Shown: piece after piece, positions 7,316 to 10,480 of the stretch
How positions within the stretch are numbered: position 1 is the first letter of the stretch
Layout: every line of letters starts with the position of its first letter
From: an uncultured bacterium
Lineage (GTDB): Bacteria; Cyanobacteriota; Vampirovibrionia; Gastranaerophilales; Gastranaerophilaceae
DNA length: 64,000 nucleotides
NCBI GenBank assembly: GCA_949284715.1
Contig: CASDWH010000016.1
Location: forward strand, 12,817 to 76,816
Direction: 5' to 3'
Made by a program: the position numbers and the translations under genes
The notes under the pieces: model-generated
What the model saw: the letters and a program-made list of their open reading frames with translations, nothing else
Database searches by the model: none
What the model was told of the DNA's origin: nothing

Positions 7316-7342
7316 TAAAGTTTTAAACCATATTGCCGTTAT
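7316..7342 (+). promoter_or_regulatory. sigma-28 (FliA)-type promoter TAAAGTTT-N11-GCCGTTAT
   Basis: Compared with the enterobacterial consensus TAAAGTTT-N11-GCCGATAA, the -35 matches 8/8 and the -10 matches 6/8. It ends 24 nt before the ATG at 7367. Confidence 0.6.
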
Positions 7343-7366
7343 ATAGACTATATATCTGGTAAAGTT

Positions 7367-10300
7367 ATGAGTGAATATTCTTTTGGAAACAGTGCGAAAT
7401 TTGATTTATCCCATATAAAAGCAGGTATTGCTATTGACGAAGACAATCTTTTTTTGAAAAAATATGATAAAAATAACAATAGTATTTTTGACGCTTCAGA
7501 AGTAAATACTTTGAAATCCGATTTGGAAAAATACAGCGGCGGGGATAAAGTTCTTGATGAGAATGAAAGTATTTCATTATTTGCAAACGTAATGAATATG
7601 TCGATTTCCAGCGTAAAGCAATTATTCAGGCAGAATAACAATAATATGGTATATGAGTCTTTTGAATCATTATATACCGCGCAGGCTTATGATAATGCCG
7701 CAAATAATATCTTATCAAACGCACAAATGGGCTTACAAATATATTACAAGGCACAGGGCGGCAGCATAAGCAAAGCCTGGAATTCTATAAAAGAATTCTG
7801 GAACACTGAATATGCAGGCGATAAAGTATACAGACAGCTTGCCGGAAATATGGCATCTGGTCTGCTTTTAAAGAAAGCTCAGGCGAATGGCGGAATCACA
7901 AAAAAAGATTACATTGAAACTAAAATCGAGTTTCTAAAAGTACTGCTCGGCGGAGAATCCTTAAAACCGGATGAAACAGCTATGATAGAAAAAGCTGTCG
8001 GCAAAATGTCTGTCGGAGAATTAGAAGTACTTATAACCACTTTAAAAAACGCAGAGAACAGCGAATACCCGCAGCTTGTAGATAGTACCCTGAAAGATTT
8101 AGCCTCAAAAGCATTCTCCTCGCACGACGGTGACGGTTTTACAGTCATAAGCCCCAATTCTATTGATGGTATTTTGCAATCTGACACCGCCCTGGAGCCG
8201 CTGTCTTTTGAACAGGTGTTTGAATTAGAACAGGGTGTAGAATTTAGTGCTGATATGGTAAATAAATATGCCGAGCAAGAACGTAAAGTCAAAATACTCG
8301 TTACAATTAATAACAGAATTGCAGAACTAACAGGTAATATCAATGAACCGCTGCAAGCATTAGAAGAACTTGATGCAGCAAAAGATTCCCCTGAAAAAAT
8401 GGAGGAAGCATACAATAACTTAAGCAGGGAAATTGTCAAAACACTTGAAAATTTATATGGCACACGGGCAAATGAAATGCTTGCAGAATACGGGTTTGCA
8501 GATGCTGAAATCGAAAACGGCACAATTGTTTTTGACAAACAGAATAATAAATATACCGCATTAACAGAATTAGCACATAAAATTCAAAATGATTTAAATT
8601 CCAAAATACAGACATCAATTGACGGAAAATCCATAGAACAATGTGAAAGAGAGCTTGGTGCAAGATATGCAATGGCATACGGCGAAAAAAATGCAGTCGA
8701 TTTAGCTGAAAAATTCCAATCAAGCCAGGAGGCTGGAGTAGGTTATGCTAAAATGCTTGTAACCGCAGCAGGAGCAGTACCGTGTATTATAAGCGGAGGT
8801 TCTTTAATACCTGTAGGAATAGGTTTAGCTGCAAGCGCATTCGGTTCTGCGGCAGTATCTTATGCGGAAGCCTCTACAAAAGACGGCGGACTAACACCGG
8901 AAGATAGAGAAGCTATTAAGTCAGAAATCCTGACAGGTTTAGCACTCACCGCAGCCGGCGGCGCAGTCGGTAAAACCTCGGCTTTAATCGGACAGGAACT
9001 TATGAAACAGTGTCCTAAACTCATTGCCTATATAGGAGAGTACGGATCTGACGCAGTAATGGGACTTTTAACTGATTTGGCCATTACCGGTGATGTCGAC
9101 CTGCAAGGTGAAGGTATTGCACAATTAATAAATATCGCAACCGGTATCCATGCCGGCAGAAAAGCTAAAGTTCACTCAACCGAATACAAAACAAGAATAA
9201 ATGAAAATCATAAATATAGTTTCTCAGATATATTTGCAAGAGATCTTTCCTGGAATGAAGTTCATGATTATGTAACAAACCTTGCTGTTAAACGCGGTTC
9301 AAATCTAAGCAGCGAGGAACTGAAAAGCATTTCAGAAGCGCTGCATAAAATGAAAAAGGATAACAGCCCGTTATATCAAGATATTCAAAACTCGGGAATA
9401 TTGAAGCTTGTTGAAGAAGGTAAAATAAGCTTTGATGTACTTAAAGATGTATGTGTAAATGCAAATAAAAACACGCGTATGTCATCTGCGTTAATGGAGG
9501 ATTGCAAAAAACTAAGTAACGGCGAATCTGTTGTAAGGGAATACTCTTCCAATTCAAATTTAAATCAGGTATTTAAAACAACACAAACAGGCGAAGTTGT
9601 TGAGGTCAGTTCTCAACTATACATCAACGACGGCAAAAGTATGGTTAAAGTTAACATGACAAAAGAAAAATATCTGGAACTTTTCCCGCCGTTCAAGAGA
9701 TTTGACATTAACCAGAATGATAGTAAACATGCCGGTAACTGCTGGTATCTTGAAACAATGCACAACCTGTATCAAAACCCGTCAACACGTATAAATATTT
9801 TAAAATTATTCAGACAGGAAGGAAACGACATATATATCAAACTTCCAAACAGCAAATACGAATACAAGTTCTCAAATGGAGAAGTTCCTAAAAATAAACA
9901 AGATAACCAGTATTACTTATCAGACAGCCCTAAATGGGTTAATATGCTGGAATATGTCGGCGCGTTCACCCGCAGAAGAAACGGGAAGCCGTCAATGGAA
10001 GACCAGTTTTCACCAGAAGCATTAAAACAAGCCAAAATTATGACAGATGATAATGTTATTGATGTTTCAAGTTATATCTTTGCCAATAGAATTGGAGGTA
10101 ATCATACTTCAGGAATGCTGTATAACCTGTACTCTGGAACCCCTGAAGAGGCGCTGGAAATGCTTACCGGAAAAAATGCAACGACAACAACATATTATAT
10201 TGATAATGGGGATAAATATTATGGCGCAGCTACTACAAAAGAAAAATCCAAAACACGAAAAACACAGCATAAAGAAATAAAAAAACTATTACAGGATTTA

Positions 10301-10480
10301 GACGGCAAAACCGGATACACAGTAAATATTGCAGTAGAAGGCCATGCTCTTGCCGTAACAAAAATTGAAAACGGCAAAGTCTATGTTCAAGATCCATATA
10401 ATACAAAACTTGAATCATCTTATACAATTGATGAAATTACAAAAATATGCGATTATATAGAAATTACTAACTTTGAATAA
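7367..10480 (+). CDS. 1037-aa orphan protein: EF-hand loop, central Gly/Ala hydrophobic hairpin, C-terminal calpain-like (clan CA) cysteine protease fold
   Basis: DKNNNSIFDASE (7466..7501) fits the 12-residue EF-hand loop. Hydrophobic segments lie at ~8730..9000. DINQNDSKHAGNCWYL, EGHALAV and VQDPYN parallel the calpain motifs DIxQGxLGDCWLL, GHAYSV and RNPW (Cys codon 9740, His codon 10343, Asp codon 10391). Confidence 0.6.
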   Translation: MSEYSFGNSAKFDLSHIKAGIAIDEDNLFLKKYDKNNNSIFDASEVNTLKSDLEKYSGGDKVLDENESISLFANVMNMSISSVKQLFRQNNNNMVYESFESLYTAQAYDNAANNILSNAQMGLQIYYKAQGGSISKAWNSIKEFWNTEYAGDKVYRQLAGNMASGLLLKKAQANGGITKKDYIETKIEFLKVLLGGESLKPDETAMIEKAVGKMSVGELEVLITTLKNAENSEYPQLVDSTLKDLASKAFSSHDGDGFTVISPNSIDGILQSDTALEPLSFEQVFELEQGVEFSADMVNKYAEQERKVKILVTINNRIAELTGNINEPLQALEELDAAKDSPEKMEEAYNNLSREIVKTLENLYGTRANEMLAEYGFADAEIENGTIVFDKQNNKYTALTELAHKIQNDLNSKIQTSIDGKSIEQCERELGARYAMAYGEKNAVDLAEKFQSSQEAGVGYAKMLVTAAGAVPCIISGGSLIPVGIGLAASAFGSAAVSYAEASTKDGGLTPEDREAIKSEILTGLALTAAGGAVGKTSALIGQELMKQCPKLIAYIGEYGSDAVMGLLTDLAITGDVDLQGEGIAQLINIATGIHAGRKAKVHSTEYKTRINENHKYSFSDIFARDLSWNEVHDYVTNLAVKRGSNLSSEELKSISEALHKMKKDNSPLYQDIQNSGILKLVEEGKISFDVLKDVCVNANKNTRMSSALMEDCKKLSNGESVVREYSSNSNLNQVFKTTQTGEVVEVSSQLYINDGKSMVKVNMTKEKYLELFPPFKRFDINQNDSKHAGNCWYLETMHNLYQNPSTRINILKLFRQEGNDIYIKLPNSKYEYKFSNGEVPKNKQDNQYYLSDSPKWVNMLEYVGAFTRRRNGKPSMEDQFSPEALKQAKIMTDDNVIDVSSYIFANRIGGNHTSGMLYNLYSGTPEEALEMLTGKNATTTTYYIDNGDKYYGAATTKEKSKTRKTQHKEIKKLLQDLDGKTGYTVNIAVEGHALAVTKIENGKVYVQDPYNTKLESSYTIDEITKICDYIEITNFE

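What the first reader, a model, noticed from the sequence alone, without database searches (positions are those of the whole stretch)
7316..10480. Giant orphan protein with EF-hand, hydrophobic hairpin and calpain-like catalytic motifs, driven by the best sigma-28-type promoter in the window
TAAAGTTT-N11-GCCGTTAT lies directly after fliA and 24 nt before the ATG. It matches the classical sigma-28 consensus better than the flagellin promoter does.

The 1037-aa product has these parts:
- a canonical 12-residue EF-hand loop (DKNNNSIFDASE);
- a long helical region;
- two Gly/Ala-rich hydrophobic segments of the kind seen in translocator or membrane-inserting effectors;
- a C-terminal domain whose GNCWYL / GHALAV / QDPYN motifs parallel the calpain Cys/His/Asn(Asp) triad context.

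Sigma-28-dependent non-flagellar proteins exported by the flagellar T3SS are known in other bacteria, for example Campylobacter. A Ca-binding, membrane-inserting cysteine protease co-regulated with late flagellar genes would be a new effector type.
Basis: partly seen in the sequence, partly recalled or inferred. Interest (0 to 1): 0.7.

Follow-up and report, generated by a model that had tools for sequence, protein, structure and literature searches.

The report
Sigma-28-driven modular toxin with calpain-like protease
This 1037-residue protein of an uncultured gut relative of cyanobacteria is not an orphan: it belongs to a large, unnamed family of modular toxin-like proteins that share a 600-residue front end, carry swappable enzyme domains at the back (here a calpain-like cysteine protease), and nearly all sit behind the same flagellar-type (sigma-28) promoter.

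Summary
**Observation.** It holds. The ORF is 7367-10480. TAAAGTTT-N11-GCCGTTAT lies at 7316-7342, 24 nt before the ATG, directly after a FliA/WhiG-like sigma gene. There is an EF-hand-like loop and a Gly/Ala-rich hydrophobic hairpin. The C-terminal domain folds like a calpain protease core; Cys792, His993 and Asp1009 occupy the catalytic columns.

**Not an orphan.**
- The N-terminal ~600 residues define an unnamed family of at least 337 clusters (50% identity).
- Named genomes are Candidatus Gastranaerophilales MAGs.
- C-termini vary: calpain-like, ADP-ribosyltransferase, AvrB-like, Zeta toxin, RelA/SpoT, HD and a possible zincin.
- This is a polymorphic-toxin-like architecture with a new front module that has no significant structural match.

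**Promoter.**
- The sigma-28-type box is conserved before family genes in all 16 loci examined, in different gene neighbourhoods.
- A palindromic TTTTGTAACAA element precedes it in most of them.
- It is the only significant such site in the 64-kb window.
- The flagellin, flgK and flgM-like genes lack it, so co-regulation with late flagellar genes is not shown.

**Untested.** Export through the flagellar type III apparatus is plausible but untested. Calcium binding is weakly supported.

**Verdict.** A real, uncharacterised toxin or effector family; a new variant of a known kind.

The parts
5506..6588 (+). flhB-like export-gate gene, first of the flhB, sigma, toxin gene run
   Evidence: TIGR00328 flhB 339.7 bits over the full length, cut-off 349.25. 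Pfam Bac_export_2 in the orthologous locus L001. NPIH stands where NPTH is usual (read from the translation).
6596..7288 (+). FliA/WhiG-like sigma factor gene directly upstream
   Evidence: Best NCBIfam family is FliA_WhiG: E 4e-24, 85.5 bits, below the cut-off of 189.6, covering positions 1-223 of 224. Pfam sees only region 4. No terminator-like site lies between it and the toxin gene.
7290..7300 (+). TTTTGTAACAA palindromic upstream element, 15 nt before the -35 box
   Evidence: A TGTAAC-type element starts 22-23 nt before the start of the -35 box in 12 of 16 family promoters, and 33-35 nt before it in 2 more. Its function is unknown.
7316..7323 (+). -35 box TAAAGTTT of the sigma-28-type promoter
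   Evidence: Conserved as TAAAG(T/A)TT in homologous loci.
7335..7342 (+). -10 box GCCGTTAT of the sigma-28-type promoter, 24 nt before the ATG
   Evidence: Leave-one-out matrix score for the whole site is 25.4 bits, against 16.5 for the next best site in the window and a shuffle maximum of 20.6.
7367..10480 (+). CDS of the 1037-aa modular protein (N-terminal family module plus calpain-like protease)
7367..9166 (+). N-terminal family module, residues 1 to about 600, shared by all family members
   Evidence: Alignment A2. The profile finds 337 representative clusters. Residues 94-468 are confidently helical. No significant fold match in PDB or BFVD.
7466..7501 (+). EF-hand-like loop DKNNNSIFDASE, residues 34-45
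   Evidence: D34, N38, S39 and E45 are invariant in A2. Paralogue P0010 scores EF-hand_7 at E 4e-6, 27.4 bits, against a cut-off of 30. The query alone has no hit. pLDDT is below 50 here.
8750..8875 (+). Gly/Ala-rich hydrophobic hairpin, residues 462-503
   Evidence: Kyte-Doolittle peak of 1.8 at residues 463-481, within 37 uncharged residues. Conserved in character across the family.
8912..9001 (+). Second, weaker hydrophobic segment, residues 516-545
   Evidence: Kyte-Doolittle peak of 1.2.
9083..9130 (+). ITGxxDLxGEGxxQ signature at the end of the family module, residues 573-588
   Evidence: The most widely conserved motif of the family. It was used to retrieve distant loci.
9311..9682 (+). 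Small alpha/beta pre-domain, residues 649-772, that precedes the protease core
   Evidence: Conserved with P0006-P0008. Modelled with pLDDT 80-95.
9692..10477 (+). Calpain-like (clan CA, C2-like) cysteine protease core, residues 776-1037. Gln783 is at 9713-9715, Cys792 at 9740-9742, His993 at 10343-10345 and Asp1009 at 10391-10393.
   Evidence: Model pLDDT 82, pTM 0.81. The Foldseek top 26 hits are calpain cores, E about 1e-4, probability 1.0. Q, C, W and H are invariant in A1. The motifs align with calpain-9 through paralogue P0008. Codons checked.
10580..11773 (+). Membrane-anchored class A beta-lactamase-like gene, a conserved downstream neighbour. Probably only a synteny anchor.
   Evidence: bla_class_A 110 bits, below the cut-off of 200. 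It follows the family gene in L001, L004, L005, L007 and L010 at 69-92% identity. It has its own sigma-70-like site at 10528-10557.

Best explanation
The gene encodes one member of an uncharacterised family of modular toxin or effector proteins from gut Gastranaerophilales (non-photosynthetic relatives of cyanobacteria).

**Shown**
- A conserved N-terminal module of about 600 residues: a degenerate EF-hand pair, a long helical bundle, a Gly/Ala-rich hydrophobic hairpin and an ITGxxDLxGEG signature.
- This module is joined to interchangeable C-terminal enzyme domains.
- In this gene the C-terminal domain is a calpain-like cysteine protease with a Gln783 / Cys792 / His993 / Asp1009 active-site set.
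- The family gene carries its own promoter, which matches the sigma-28 (FliA) consensus. Here it also sits directly behind flhB and a FliA/WhiG-like sigma gene.

**Inferred**
- The FliA-like sigma factor transcribes the gene.
- The protein has no Sec-type signal. It leaves the cell by a Sec-independent route, most plausibly the flagellar type III export gate.
- The hydrophobic hairpin of the N-terminal module then inserts into a target membrane and helps carry or anchor the protease. This is how the translocation regions of large toxins and type III translocators work.
- The protease acts as the payload, and possibly also cuts itself free of the module.
- No immunity gene follows this gene. 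That fits either a non-self (host or eukaryote) target or an enzyme that stays inactive in the producer, for example until it meets calcium. This last point is speculative.
For: **Family and modularity**
- There are 10 close homologues. Five are full-length orthologues. The other five share only the N-terminal 57-68% of the query and continue with other domains.
- A profile search finds 337 clusters at E <= 1e-3 and 109 at E <= 1e-30, with lengths up to 3101 aa.
- Pfam on the paralogues finds Peptidase_C2, ADPrib_exo_Tox, AvrB_AvrC, Zeta_toxin, RelA_SpoT and HD. One paralogue has an HELNH motif.
- The calpain-like domain recurs in about 28 of the 162 family proteins held.

**Protease**

**Promoter**
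- The window site scores 25.4 bits with a matrix built from other loci, and it is unique in the window.
- The same box lies 21-40 nt before the start codon in 16 of 16 informative family loci. These include loci with no fliA nearby (L003, L004, L005/L010, L011, L012) and distant members from a metagenome scan (L014, L022, L023, L025, L026, L027).
- In 200 kb of related loci, sites of 17 bits or more occur almost only before family genes.
- No sigma-70-type site and no terminator lies between the sigma gene and the ATG.

**No Sec signal**
- No hydrophobic window occurs before residue 456.

**Taxon**
- All seven genome loci come from metagenome-assembled genomes: six are titled Candidatus Gastranaerophilales or Gastranaerophilaceae and one 'uncultured bacterium'. 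Two paralogues occur in one MAG.
- The window carries a flagellar gene set: flagellin, flgF, flgG, flgA, flgH, flgI, flgN, flgK and flgL.

**Precedents**
- Flagellum-dependent toxin export is known for the Vibrio cholerae Mak toxins (PMC8617504, from its abstract). It is reported for Lysobacter enzymogenes (PMC7688988, not read; as cited in PMC11762177).
- Calpain homologues fused to WXG domains were suggested to be secreted T7SS toxins (reviewer comment in PMC4631099).
Against: - No experiment or direct computation here shows secretion, membrane insertion, protease activity or sigma-28 dependence.
- The sigma factor next door is below every curated FliA cut-off. Pfam recognises only its region 4.
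- The flagellar late genes in the same window lack the promoter box. Flagellin has a sigma-70-like TTGACA promoter. The regulon may therefore not be 'flagellar' at all.
- The N-terminal module has no significant structural relative. The best PDB hit has E 0.09 and the best BFVD hit E 0.009 at probability 0.44, both with TM-scores around 0.1. Its hydrophobic part is modelled with pLDDT below 50.
- The third catalytic residue is Asp, not the Asn of calpains. The query itself fails the Pfam model.
- No flagellar genes lie next to the distant family members in the flanks fetched.
- No immunity gene is evident here, which departs from classical polymorphic toxin loci.
Confidence: 0.55

Rival explanations
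1. It is a self-translocating exotoxin, in the manner of large clostridial toxins or MARTX toxins, under a dedicated sigma factor. The neighbouring sigma factor would be a toxin-specific regulator with FliA-like promoter specificity, comparable to TcdR for TcdA/TcdB. The protein would be released by lysis or by an unidentified exporter, not through the flagellum. The hydrophobic module would form the pore through which the protease enters a target cell. The calpain-like domain would serve mainly as a releasing or autoprocessing protease.
For: - The promoter box is found before family genes but not before flagellin, flgK or the gene before flgN in this window.
- The sigma factor is a sub-threshold FliA relative.
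- In some members the calpain-like domain is internal and followed by several hundred further residues: P0049 1556-1817 of 2259, P0090 801-1192 of 1810. In P0008 it accompanies an ADP-ribosyltransferase domain. This is the position of releasing peptidases in polymorphic toxins (PMC3482391, from my knowledge of that paper).
- The flagellar sigma factor SigD is linked to toxin expression in Clostridioides difficile (abstract of bioRxiv 10.1101/256883).
Against: - The promoter matches the classical sigma-28 consensus closely, which argues for a true FliA-type factor.
- flhB, the gate component that controls the switch to late substrates, lies in the same gene run.
- No holin or other exporter is adjacent.
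- In the query the protease is the only domain after the module, so there is nothing else for it to release.
Confidence: 0.25
2. It is a resident membrane protein of the producer cell. The hydrophobic hairpin would anchor it in the cytoplasmic membrane. The calpain-like domain would then carry out regulated proteolysis linked to motility or the cell envelope, rather than acting on another cell.
For: - The hairpin reaches transmembrane-type hydropathy, 1.8.
- There is no signal peptide.
- The gene is linked to flhB and fliA, and to a conserved membrane-anchored beta-lactamase-like gene.
- Bacterial calpain homologues can be membrane-associated (abstract of PMC4631099).
Against: - Paralogues carry Zeta toxin, ADP-ribosyltransferase, AvrB-like, RelA/SpoT and HD domains on the same module. 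That pattern is typical of toxins, not of housekeeping enzymes.
- There are several divergent paralogues per genome, and one appears to be disrupted.
- The protein evolves much faster than its neighbour: 42-88% identity against 69-92% for the beta-lactamase-like gene.
Confidence: 0.12
3. The calpain-like domain is a catalytically dead binding domain, and the promoter resemblance has no function.
For: - Asn is replaced by Asp and three residues are inserted between the oxyanion Gln and the Cys.
- The query fails the Pfam model.
- Non-peptidase calpain homologues are common (PMC4631099).
Against: - Gln, Cys, Trp and His are invariant and the Asp is kept in all orthologues from 99% down to 51% identity.
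- Cys-His-Asp triads do work in other clan CA enzymes (general knowledge).
- The promoter box is conserved in 16 of 16 loci at a fixed distance from the start codon, which chance does not explain.
Confidence: 0.08

Closest known systems
Polymorphic toxin systems (Zhang, Aravind and colleagues 2012, PMC3482391)
   Same: - A conserved N-terminal region is joined to highly variable C-terminal toxin domains.
- The same kinds of tips occur here: ADP-ribosyltransferase, Zeta-type kinase, RelA/SpoT-type, HD and papain-fold peptidases.
- There are several divergent paralogues per genome.
   Different: - The N-terminal module matches none of the known trafficking domains. There is no Pfam, PDB or PHROGs match.
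- No immunity gene follows the query gene. Only the long forms have an abutting 105-aa ORF.
- A family-wide sigma-28-type promoter has not been described for such systems. That paper does not mention calpain or AvrB, and raises flagellar delivery only as a question about one RNase.
Calpain family C2, including bacterial homologues such as Porphyromonas gingivalis Tpr (Rawlings 2015, PMC4631099)
   Same: - The fold is that of the calpain protease core.
- The Gln...G(N/D)CW Cys motif and the xHA(Y/L) His motif are present.
- Paralogues pass the PF00648 threshold.
- Fusion of bacterial calpain domains to secretion-linked domains (WXG) is known.
   Different: - Asp1009 stands where the catalytic Asn is.
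- Three residues are inserted between the Gln and the Cys.
- The query is below the Pfam threshold.
- It is fused to a 600-residue hydrophobic module.
- There is a conserved 120-residue pre-domain.
- Calcium sites of the core were not examined.
Sigma-28-dependent non-flagellar proteins exported through the flagellum (Campylobacter jejuni Cia/Fed/FspA proteins, Yersinia YplA, Vibrio cholerae MakA/B/E)
   Same: - A late-class (sigma-28-type) promoter and no Sec signal.
- Toxin or effector character.
- The Mak toxins are helical pore-formers with flagellum-facilitated secretion (PMC8617504). ClyA-type pore-formers (XaxB, ClyA, PaxB, AhlB) appear among the weak, non-significant fold matches of the N-terminal module.
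   Different: - Those proteins are small, single-function proteins. This one is a 1000-3000-residue modular family.
- No secretion data exist for it.
- The late flagellar genes in this window do not share the promoter box.
Large clostridial toxins (TcdA/TcdB with TcdR) and MARTX toxins
   Same: - Giant multidomain toxins with a hydrophobic translocation region and a cysteine protease domain.
- A sigma factor gene lies next to the toxin gene, and toxin expression is linked to the flagellar sigma factor in C. difficile.
   Different: - No sequence or fold relation was found.
- Their protease domain is a clan CD, inositol-phosphate-activated enzyme.
- The domain order differs.
- TcdR-type promoters are not of the sigma-28 type (general knowledge).
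Type III translocators (IpaB/SipB/YopB) and chlamydial Inc proteins
   Same: A long helical region followed by a bilobed, uncharged hydrophobic hairpin of about 40 residues, in a protein without a Sec signal.
   Different: - No sequence or significant fold similarity was detected.
- No injectisome genes were seen.
- The resemblance is one of layout only, recalled from general knowledge.

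Membership tests
Peptidase family C2 (calpain), clan CA | Papain-like two-lobed protease core fold | tested here: met
   AlphaFold2 model with pLDDT 82 and pTM 0.81. The 26 best Foldseek PDB matches are calpain cores: E 9e-5 to 2e-3, probability 0.92-1.0, TM 0.30-0.42 on the target.
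Peptidase family C2 (calpain), clan CA | Catalytic Cys in a GDCW-type motif, with the oxyanion-hole Gln upstream | tested here: met
   GNCW with C792 and W793 invariant, and Q783 invariant, though with a 3-residue insertion relative to QGxLGDCW. Paralogue P0008 aligns QGNLGDCWL with calpain-9 QGELGDCWL.
Peptidase family C2 (calpain), clan CA | Catalytic His | tested here: met
   H993 is invariant in A1 and falls in the column of the calpain GHAYS His, via P0008.
Peptidase family C2 (calpain), clan CA | Catalytic Asn (NPW motif) | tested here: not met
   The query and its five orthologues have QDPYN, that is Asp1009. Paralogues P0006-P0008 have TNPW(D/N) and P0090 has NPYN.
Peptidase family C2 (calpain), clan CA | Score above the Pfam PF00648 gathering threshold | tested here: not met
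   The query has no hit at E <= 1. Paralogues P0007 and P0008 score 25.8 and 28.8 bits against a cut-off of 23.8. A profile of A1 against PDB sequences did not reach calpain.
Peptidase family C2 (calpain), clan CA | Triad residues in catalytic geometry; peptidase activity | not testable with these tools
   Model coordinates could not be inspected. No biochemistry is available.
EF-hand calcium-binding motif | 12-residue loop with oxygen ligands at positions 1, 3, 5, 9 and 12 | tested here: met
   D34, N36, N38, D42 and E45, read directly from the sequence. D34, N38 and E45 are invariant in A2.
EF-hand calcium-binding motif | Gly at position 6 and Ile/Leu/Val at position 8 (PROSITE PS00018, recalled from memory) | tested here: not met
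   Position 6 is Ser39 and position 8 is Phe41.
EF-hand calcium-binding motif | Match to EF-hand profiles; a helix-loop-helix pair | tested here: inconclusive
   The query has no hit at E <= 5. Paralogue P0010 scores EF-hand_7 at 27.4 bits (cut-off 30) and EF-hand_6 at 23.7 bits (cut-off 25). Other members score E 0.017-0.2. The A2 profile's only PDB hit is calbindin at E 0.48. The model has pLDDT below 50 over residues 17-42. The second loop of the query is one residue short and degenerate.
Sigma-28 (FliA) dependent promoter | TAAAGTTT-N11-GCCGATAA-type boxes at the right spacing, close upstream of the gene | tested here: met
   -35 box 8 of 8. -10 box GCCGTTAT is 6 of 8 against GCCGATAA and 7 of 8 against the Bacillus form GCCGATAT (consensus recalled from memory). 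The spacer is 11 nt and the site ends 24 nt before the ATG.
Sigma-28 (FliA) dependent promoter | Conservation beyond chance | tested here: met
   25.4 bits with a leave-one-out matrix, against a shuffle maximum of 20.6. Present in 16 of 16 family loci at 21-40 nt from the start codon.
Sigma-28 (FliA) dependent promoter | Transcription depends on FliA; shared with late flagellar genes | tested here: inconclusive
   Dependence on FliA cannot be tested here. Flagellin, flgK and the gene before flgN in the window show no site of 12 bits or more. The neighbouring sigma factor is FliA/WhiG-like but sub-threshold.
Polymorphic toxin system | Conserved N-terminal region with variable C-terminal toxin domains | tested here: met
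Polymorphic toxin system | Cognate immunity gene immediately downstream | tested here: not met
   In the window the next gene, 100 nt downstream, is a conserved beta-lactamase-like gene. Long-form paralogues P0007 and P0008 do have an abutting 105-aa ORF of unknown family.
Polymorphic toxin system | Recognised secretion-linked N-terminal domain (signal peptide, TPS, PAAR/VgrG, LXG/WXG, MuF and so on) | tested here: not met
   No Pfam, NCBIfam or PHROGs match to the N-terminal module. No hydrophobic N-terminus.
Flagellar type III export substrate | Export through the flagellar gate | not testable with these tools
   Only circumstantial: promoter type, adjacency to flhB and fliA, and no Sec signal.

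The most novel reading that the evidence does not exclude
The 600-residue N-terminal module may be a dedicated export-and-translocation device for the flagellar type III apparatus. The FliA-like sigma factor of gut Gastranaerophilales would then control a whole arsenal of interchangeable toxins built on it: calpain-like protease, ADP-ribosyltransferase, AvrB-like, Zeta kinase and RelA/SpoT-type. This would be the first polymorphic-toxin class tied to the flagellum. It would make the flagellum of a common human gut commensal a toxin-delivery organ.
Probability: 0.3. Interest if true: 0.85.

Novelty: new variant of a known kind. Interest (0 to 1): 0.65.

Why it matters
Gastranaerophilales are widespread but uncultured members of human and animal gut communities. 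Almost nothing is known about how they interact with the host or with other microbes.

This finding gives them a large, diverse and so far unnamed toxin or effector family, with three points of interest:
- **A new delivery-type module.** It has no structural relative.
- **A fixed promoter architecture.** A sigma-28-type box plus a palindromic upstream element. This makes the regulon directly testable in vitro or in a heterologous host.
- **A testable secretion question.** It bears on the open issue of how far flagellar export systems are used to secrete non-flagellar toxins.

It also adds a Cys-His-Asp variant to the rare bacterial calpain homologues.

Tried and rejected
- **Curated libraries on the query alone.** Pfam, NCBIfam, PHROGs and PDB sequences gave nothing.
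- **Profiles against PDB sequences.** The A1 (C-terminal) and A2 (N-terminal) profiles gave nothing significant. Only calbindin appeared, at E 0.48, for the EF-hand region.
- **Fold search of the N-terminal module.**
  - PDB gave no hit at E <= 0.001. The ClyA, XaxB, PaxB and AhlB pore-formers appear only as weak hits with probability 0.57 or less.
  - BFVD gave tape measure proteins and internal virion proteins at E >= 0.009 and TM about 0.1.
  - I treat both as unspecific long-helix matches. I do not claim a pore-former or tape-measure relationship.
- **First metagenome scan.** The scan was repeated with the 80-residue signature alignment A4.
- **Loci L013 and L021.** They were uninformative for the promoter, because the family ORF is split or its start is unclear.
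- **A sigma-28 site before flgK.** The candidate CAAAGACC-N11-GCCGTAA at 53965 did not reach 12 bits with the family matrix.
- **The beta-lactamase-like neighbour as a functional partner or immunity protein.** Rejected as unlikely. It is far better conserved than the toxin and has its own sigma-70-like promoter, so it looks like a synteny anchor.
- **Small neighbouring ORFs.** The 105-aa, 170-aa, 151-aa, 145-aa and 120-aa ORFs match no known chaperone or immunity families.
- **Cluster look-up for names.** It returned only 'hypothetical protein [bacterium]'.
- **Literature searches.** No description of this family or of Melainabacteria toxins was found.
- **Taxonomy of the distant family members.** It could not be established.

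Full report
**1. What is in the sequence**

The ORF 7367..10480 (+) encodes 1037 aa. It begins at the first start codon after an in-frame stop; the frame is open only from 7319. Directly upstream, in the same orientation, lies this gene run:
- a histidine kinase;
- a receiver protein;
- an MshE/PilB-like ATPase;
- flhB (5506..6588; TIGR00328 339.7 bits);
- a 230-aa sigma factor (6596..7288). Its best family is FliA/WhiG (E 4e-24, full-length alignment), but it scores below the curated cut-off. Pfam recognises only its region 4.

The 78-nt gap between the sigma gene and the ATG holds, in order:
- TTTTGTAACAA (7290-7300);
- TAAAGTTT (7316-7323);
- an 11-nt spacer;
- GCCGTTAT (7335-7342);
- 24 nt to the ATG.

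No sigma-70-type site on the + strand and no terminator-like hairpin lies in this gap.

**2. Is the promoter more than chance?**

I collected the regions upstream of homologues from other contigs and built a two-box weight matrix without the window's own site.
- The window site scores 25.4 bits.
- The next best site on either strand of the 64 kb scores 16.5 bits.
- The best site in each of 30 shuffled windows ranged from 13.4 to 20.6 bits.

Conservation is the stronger argument. The same boxes precede the family gene in every informative locus.

Loci where the gene follows the sigma gene:

| Locus | Site |
|---|---|
| L001 / L008 | TAAAGTTT-N11-GCCGTTAT |
| L006 | TAAAGTTT-N11-GCCGTATA |
| L007 | TAAAGTTT-N11-GCCGTTAT |

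Loci where the neighbours are quite different:

| Locus | Site |
|---|---|
| L003 | TGAATTTT-N12-GCCGATTA |
| L004 | TAAAGAAA-N12-GCCGTTAT |
| L005 | TAAAGATT-N11-GCCGTTAA |
| L010 | TAAAGATT-N12-GCCGTTAA |
| L011 | CAAAGTTT-N11-ACCGTTAT |
| L012 | TAAAGATT-N11-GCCGTAGT |

Six distant members came from a metagenome scan with the family signature (L014, L022, L023, L025, L026, L027). They carry recognisable versions too, for example TAAAGTTT-N12-GCCGATAA in L025. These score 10-20.7 bits. Among 197 control upstream regions, only 5% reach 10 bits, and that top 5% is made up largely of the family genes included in the control set.

In all 16 loci the -10 box ends 21-40 nt before the start codon. 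In 200 kb of related loci, sites of 17 bits or more occur before family genes, with two exceptions:
- one lies before a 170-aa ORF just upstream of the L011 paralogue;
- one, of 17.1 bits, lies inside a glycosyltransferase gene.

A second conserved element, TTTTGTAACAA, is often part of a longer palindrome. It starts 22-23 nt before the -35 box in 12 of 16 loci and 33-35 nt before it in two more. That places it around -60 relative to the likely start site, a typical position for an activator. I could not assign a binding protein.

**3. Does this tie the gene to the flagellum?**

Only partly. The window holds flagellin (46956), flgF, flgG, flgA, flgH, flgI, a rod-binding protein, flgN, flgK and flgL.
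- None of these genes has a site of 12 bits or more nearby.
- Flagellin has a sigma-70-like TTGACA promoter.
- The region before the 91-aa ORF upstream of flgN has no match.

So the boxes are of sigma-28 type, and the adjacent sigma factor is FliA-like and sits behind flhB. What is demonstrated is a promoter specific to this protein family, not co-regulation with late flagellar genes.

**4. The protein is not an orphan**

A word-indexed search found only 10 relatives. Five are full-length orthologues at 99-51% identity. The other five share the N-terminal 57-68% of the query and are longer:

| Paralogue | Content after the module |
|---|---|
| P0007 | a long helical insert, then Peptidase_C2 (25.8 bits, cut-off 23.8) |
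| P0008 | ADPrib_exo_Tox (E 2e-12), then Peptidase_C2 (28.8 bits) |
| P0010 | AvrB_AvrC (E 7e-13) |
| P0009 | an HD-like motif |

An exhaustive profile search with the N-terminal alignment A2 found 337 representative clusters at E <= 1e-3 and 109 at E <= 1e-30. Lengths reach 3101 aa. The common core spans profile positions of about 100-620.

Pfam on 31 of these proteins gave AvrB_AvrC (4), Zeta_toxin, ADPrib_exo_Tox, RelA_SpoT, HD, AAA_33 and EH. Most C-termini are unannotated. The L011 paralogue ends in a domain with an HELNH motif. A profile of the query's own C-terminal domain finds that domain in about 28 of the 162 family proteins held, sometimes internally.

No member carries a name other than 'hypothetical protein'.

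All seven loci found in reference genomes are in metagenome-assembled genomes: six are titled Candidatus Gastranaerophilales or Gastranaerophilaceae and one 'uncultured bacterium'. One MAG holds two paralogues. Some members of this order are reported to have complete flagellar gene sets (PMC9029806).

The layout is that of polymorphic toxins: a conserved front, swappable toxin domains, and several fast-evolving paralogues per genome. The front module, however, is new.

**5. The C-terminal domain**

Alignment A1 holds query residues 640-1037, four orthologues and the C-termini of P0006-P0008.
- Gln783, Cys792, Trp793 and His993 are invariant.
- The third triad position is Asp1009 in the query clade (QDPYN) and Asn in the long forms (TNPW).

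The AlphaFold2 model has pLDDT 82 and pTM 0.81. Its 26 best PDB matches are all calpain protease cores (calpain-9, -3, -1 and -5), with E 9e-5 to 2e-3 and probability 0.92-1.0. Papain-fold interbacterial toxins follow further down the list. TM-scores are modest, 0.30-0.42 on the target. That is as expected for a two-lobed core with a mobile hinge and an extra pre-domain.

By sequence, P0008 aligns QGNLGDCWL, NHAYT and NPW with the catalytic Cys, His and Asn motifs of calpain-9, but at a non-significant E of 0.4. The A1 profile did not reach calpain in PDB sequences.

I therefore call the domain calpain-like: clan CA with a C2-type fold. I do not file it as a bona fide C2 member, for three reasons:
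- the catalytic Asn is replaced;
- three residues are inserted between the Gln and the Cys;
- the Pfam threshold is not met by the query.

The full active-site set is kept across orthologues down to 51% identity. This argues that the domain is active.

**6. The N-terminal module**

*Model.* The model has a mean pLDDT of 66.
- Residues 94-468 form long helices at pLDDT 80-90.
- The EF-hand region (17-42) and the hydrophobic region (467-629) are below 50.

No significant fold match exists in PDB (best E 0.09) or in BFVD (best E 0.009, probability 0.44, TM about 0.1).

*EF-hand-like loop.* It has all five side-chain ligand positions but lacks Gly6 and has Phe at position 8.
- The query matches no EF-hand model.
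- Paralogue P0010, which has a much better second loop (DVDGDGVISQNE), scores just under the thresholds.
- The region is best described as a degenerate EF-hand pair. Calcium binding by the query is possible but unproven.

*Hydropathy.* The analysis confirms a 37-residue uncharged, Gly/Ala-rich stretch (peak 1.8). It is long enough for a helical hairpin. A weaker segment follows (peak 1.2). No hydrophobic window occurs before residue 456, so there is no Sec-type signal.

*Signature.* The module ends with the family's best conserved signature, ITGxxDLxGEGxxQ.

**7. Neighbours**

A membrane-anchored class A beta-lactamase-like gene follows the family gene in the window and in L001, L004, L005, L007 and L010. 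It is much better conserved than the toxin (69-92% identity) and has its own sigma-70-like site. I read it as a synteny anchor.

The long forms P0007 and P0008 are positional counterparts of the query gene. Each is followed, with no gap, by a 105-aa ORF of unknown family. It could be an immunity protein or a chaperone. The window has no such ORF.

**8. Mechanism**

*Shown:*
- the modular architecture;
- the calpain-type fold with a complete Gln/Cys/His/Asp set;
- the hydrophobic hairpin;
- the absence of a signal peptide;
- the family-wide sigma-28-type promoter;
- adjacency to flhB and a FliA-like sigma gene in the query lineage.

*Inferred:*
- transcription by that sigma factor;
- Sec-independent export, most plausibly through the flagellar gate;
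- membrane insertion of the hairpin to deliver or anchor the C-terminal enzyme;
- the protease acting as payload and perhaps also as a self-releasing peptidase.

*Main rival.* A self-translocating exotoxin under a dedicated FliA-like sigma factor, released by some other route. The two models differ only in the export step. Either fits the observation that the flagellar genes in the window do not share the promoter.

*Less likely rival.* A resident membrane protease. The toxin-type domains on the same module in paralogues argue against it.

**9. Comparison with known systems, and novelty**

The closest concepts are:
- polymorphic toxin systems (PMC3482391);
- rare bacterial calpain homologues, some fused to secretion-linked domains (PMC4631099);
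- the sigma-factor-plus-giant-toxin arrangement of clostridial toxins.

None of these shares the N-terminal module. I found no paper describing this family or any toxin repertoire of Melainabacteria.

I rate it a new variant of a known kind. It is a new trafficking-type module and a new regulatory signature for a polymorphic-toxin-like family, with a Cys-His-Asp calpain-like tip.

**10. Verdict**

- Right: the protease and the promoter type.
- Overstated: the EF-hand.
- Wrong: the 'orphan' label.
- Untested: flagellar export and co-regulation with late flagellar genes.

Interest is 0.65. The family and its promoter are solid and unreported. The export route, which would make this remarkable, is still open.

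Noticed in passing
L004 1-4899 (-), contig ena:ERZ28613971 scaffold_4256 (same as L009): A giant flagellar cap-like protein of at least 2413 aa, cut by the contig end. It has FliD_N and FliD_C ends and a faint OTU-like hit between them. It lies 5 kb from paralogue P0004. It could be a cap protein carrying an enzymatic insert.
   Followed up: no
window 46788-46955 (upstream of flagellin 46956-47855): Flagellin has a sigma-70-like TTGACA promoter and no sigma-28 box. Its 5' leader holds all three TTAGGGA copies found on the + strand of the whole window (46841, 46886, 46934). This resembles the repeated CsrA-binding sites of flagellin leaders in other bacteria.
   Followed up: partly
window 7290-7300; same relative position in L001, L003, L005-L007, L010, L012, L022, L025 and others: A conserved palindromic TTTTGTAACAA(AA) element starts 22-23 nt before the -35 box of the family promoters (12 of 16 loci). 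In L011 it is displaced by about one helical turn. It is likely a regulator binding site. The binding protein is unknown.
   Followed up: partly
L011 4859-4885 and ORF 4899-5411; L011 5549-6091 and 6289-9648: A second strong sigma-28-type site (TAAAGTTT-N11-GCCGATAT, 23 bits) precedes a 170-aa ORF of unknown family just upstream of a paralogue. That paralogue is split into two ORFs, by disruption or assembly error, and ends in a domain with an HELNH zincin-like motif.
   Followed up: partly
L005 11094-11411; L010 14675-15007: A 105-110-aa ORF of unknown family starts on the base after the stop codon of the long-form paralogues P0008 and P0007 (84% identical between the two loci). It is a candidate immunity protein or chaperone. 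It is absent from the window.
   Followed up: partly
window 19365-22445 (+): A 1026-aa protein that combines Phage_lysozyme, LysM and Amidase_3 domains. This is an unusually large multi-domain cell-wall hydrolase.
   Followed up: no
window 5506-6588 (+) and 4105-5487 (+): FlhB has NPIH where the autocleavage motif NPTH is usual. The gene before it is an MshEN-domain (c-di-GMP-binding type) PilB/GspE-like ATPase. Its match to the PilB model stops at position 392 of 564, an odd partner in a flhB-fliA gene run.
   Followed up: no
family proteins P0049 (1556-1817 of 2259 aa) and P0090 (801-1192 of 1810 aa): In some family members the calpain-like domain is internal and followed by hundreds of further residues. 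There it may act as a releasing or autoprocessing peptidase rather than as the payload.
   Followed up: partly
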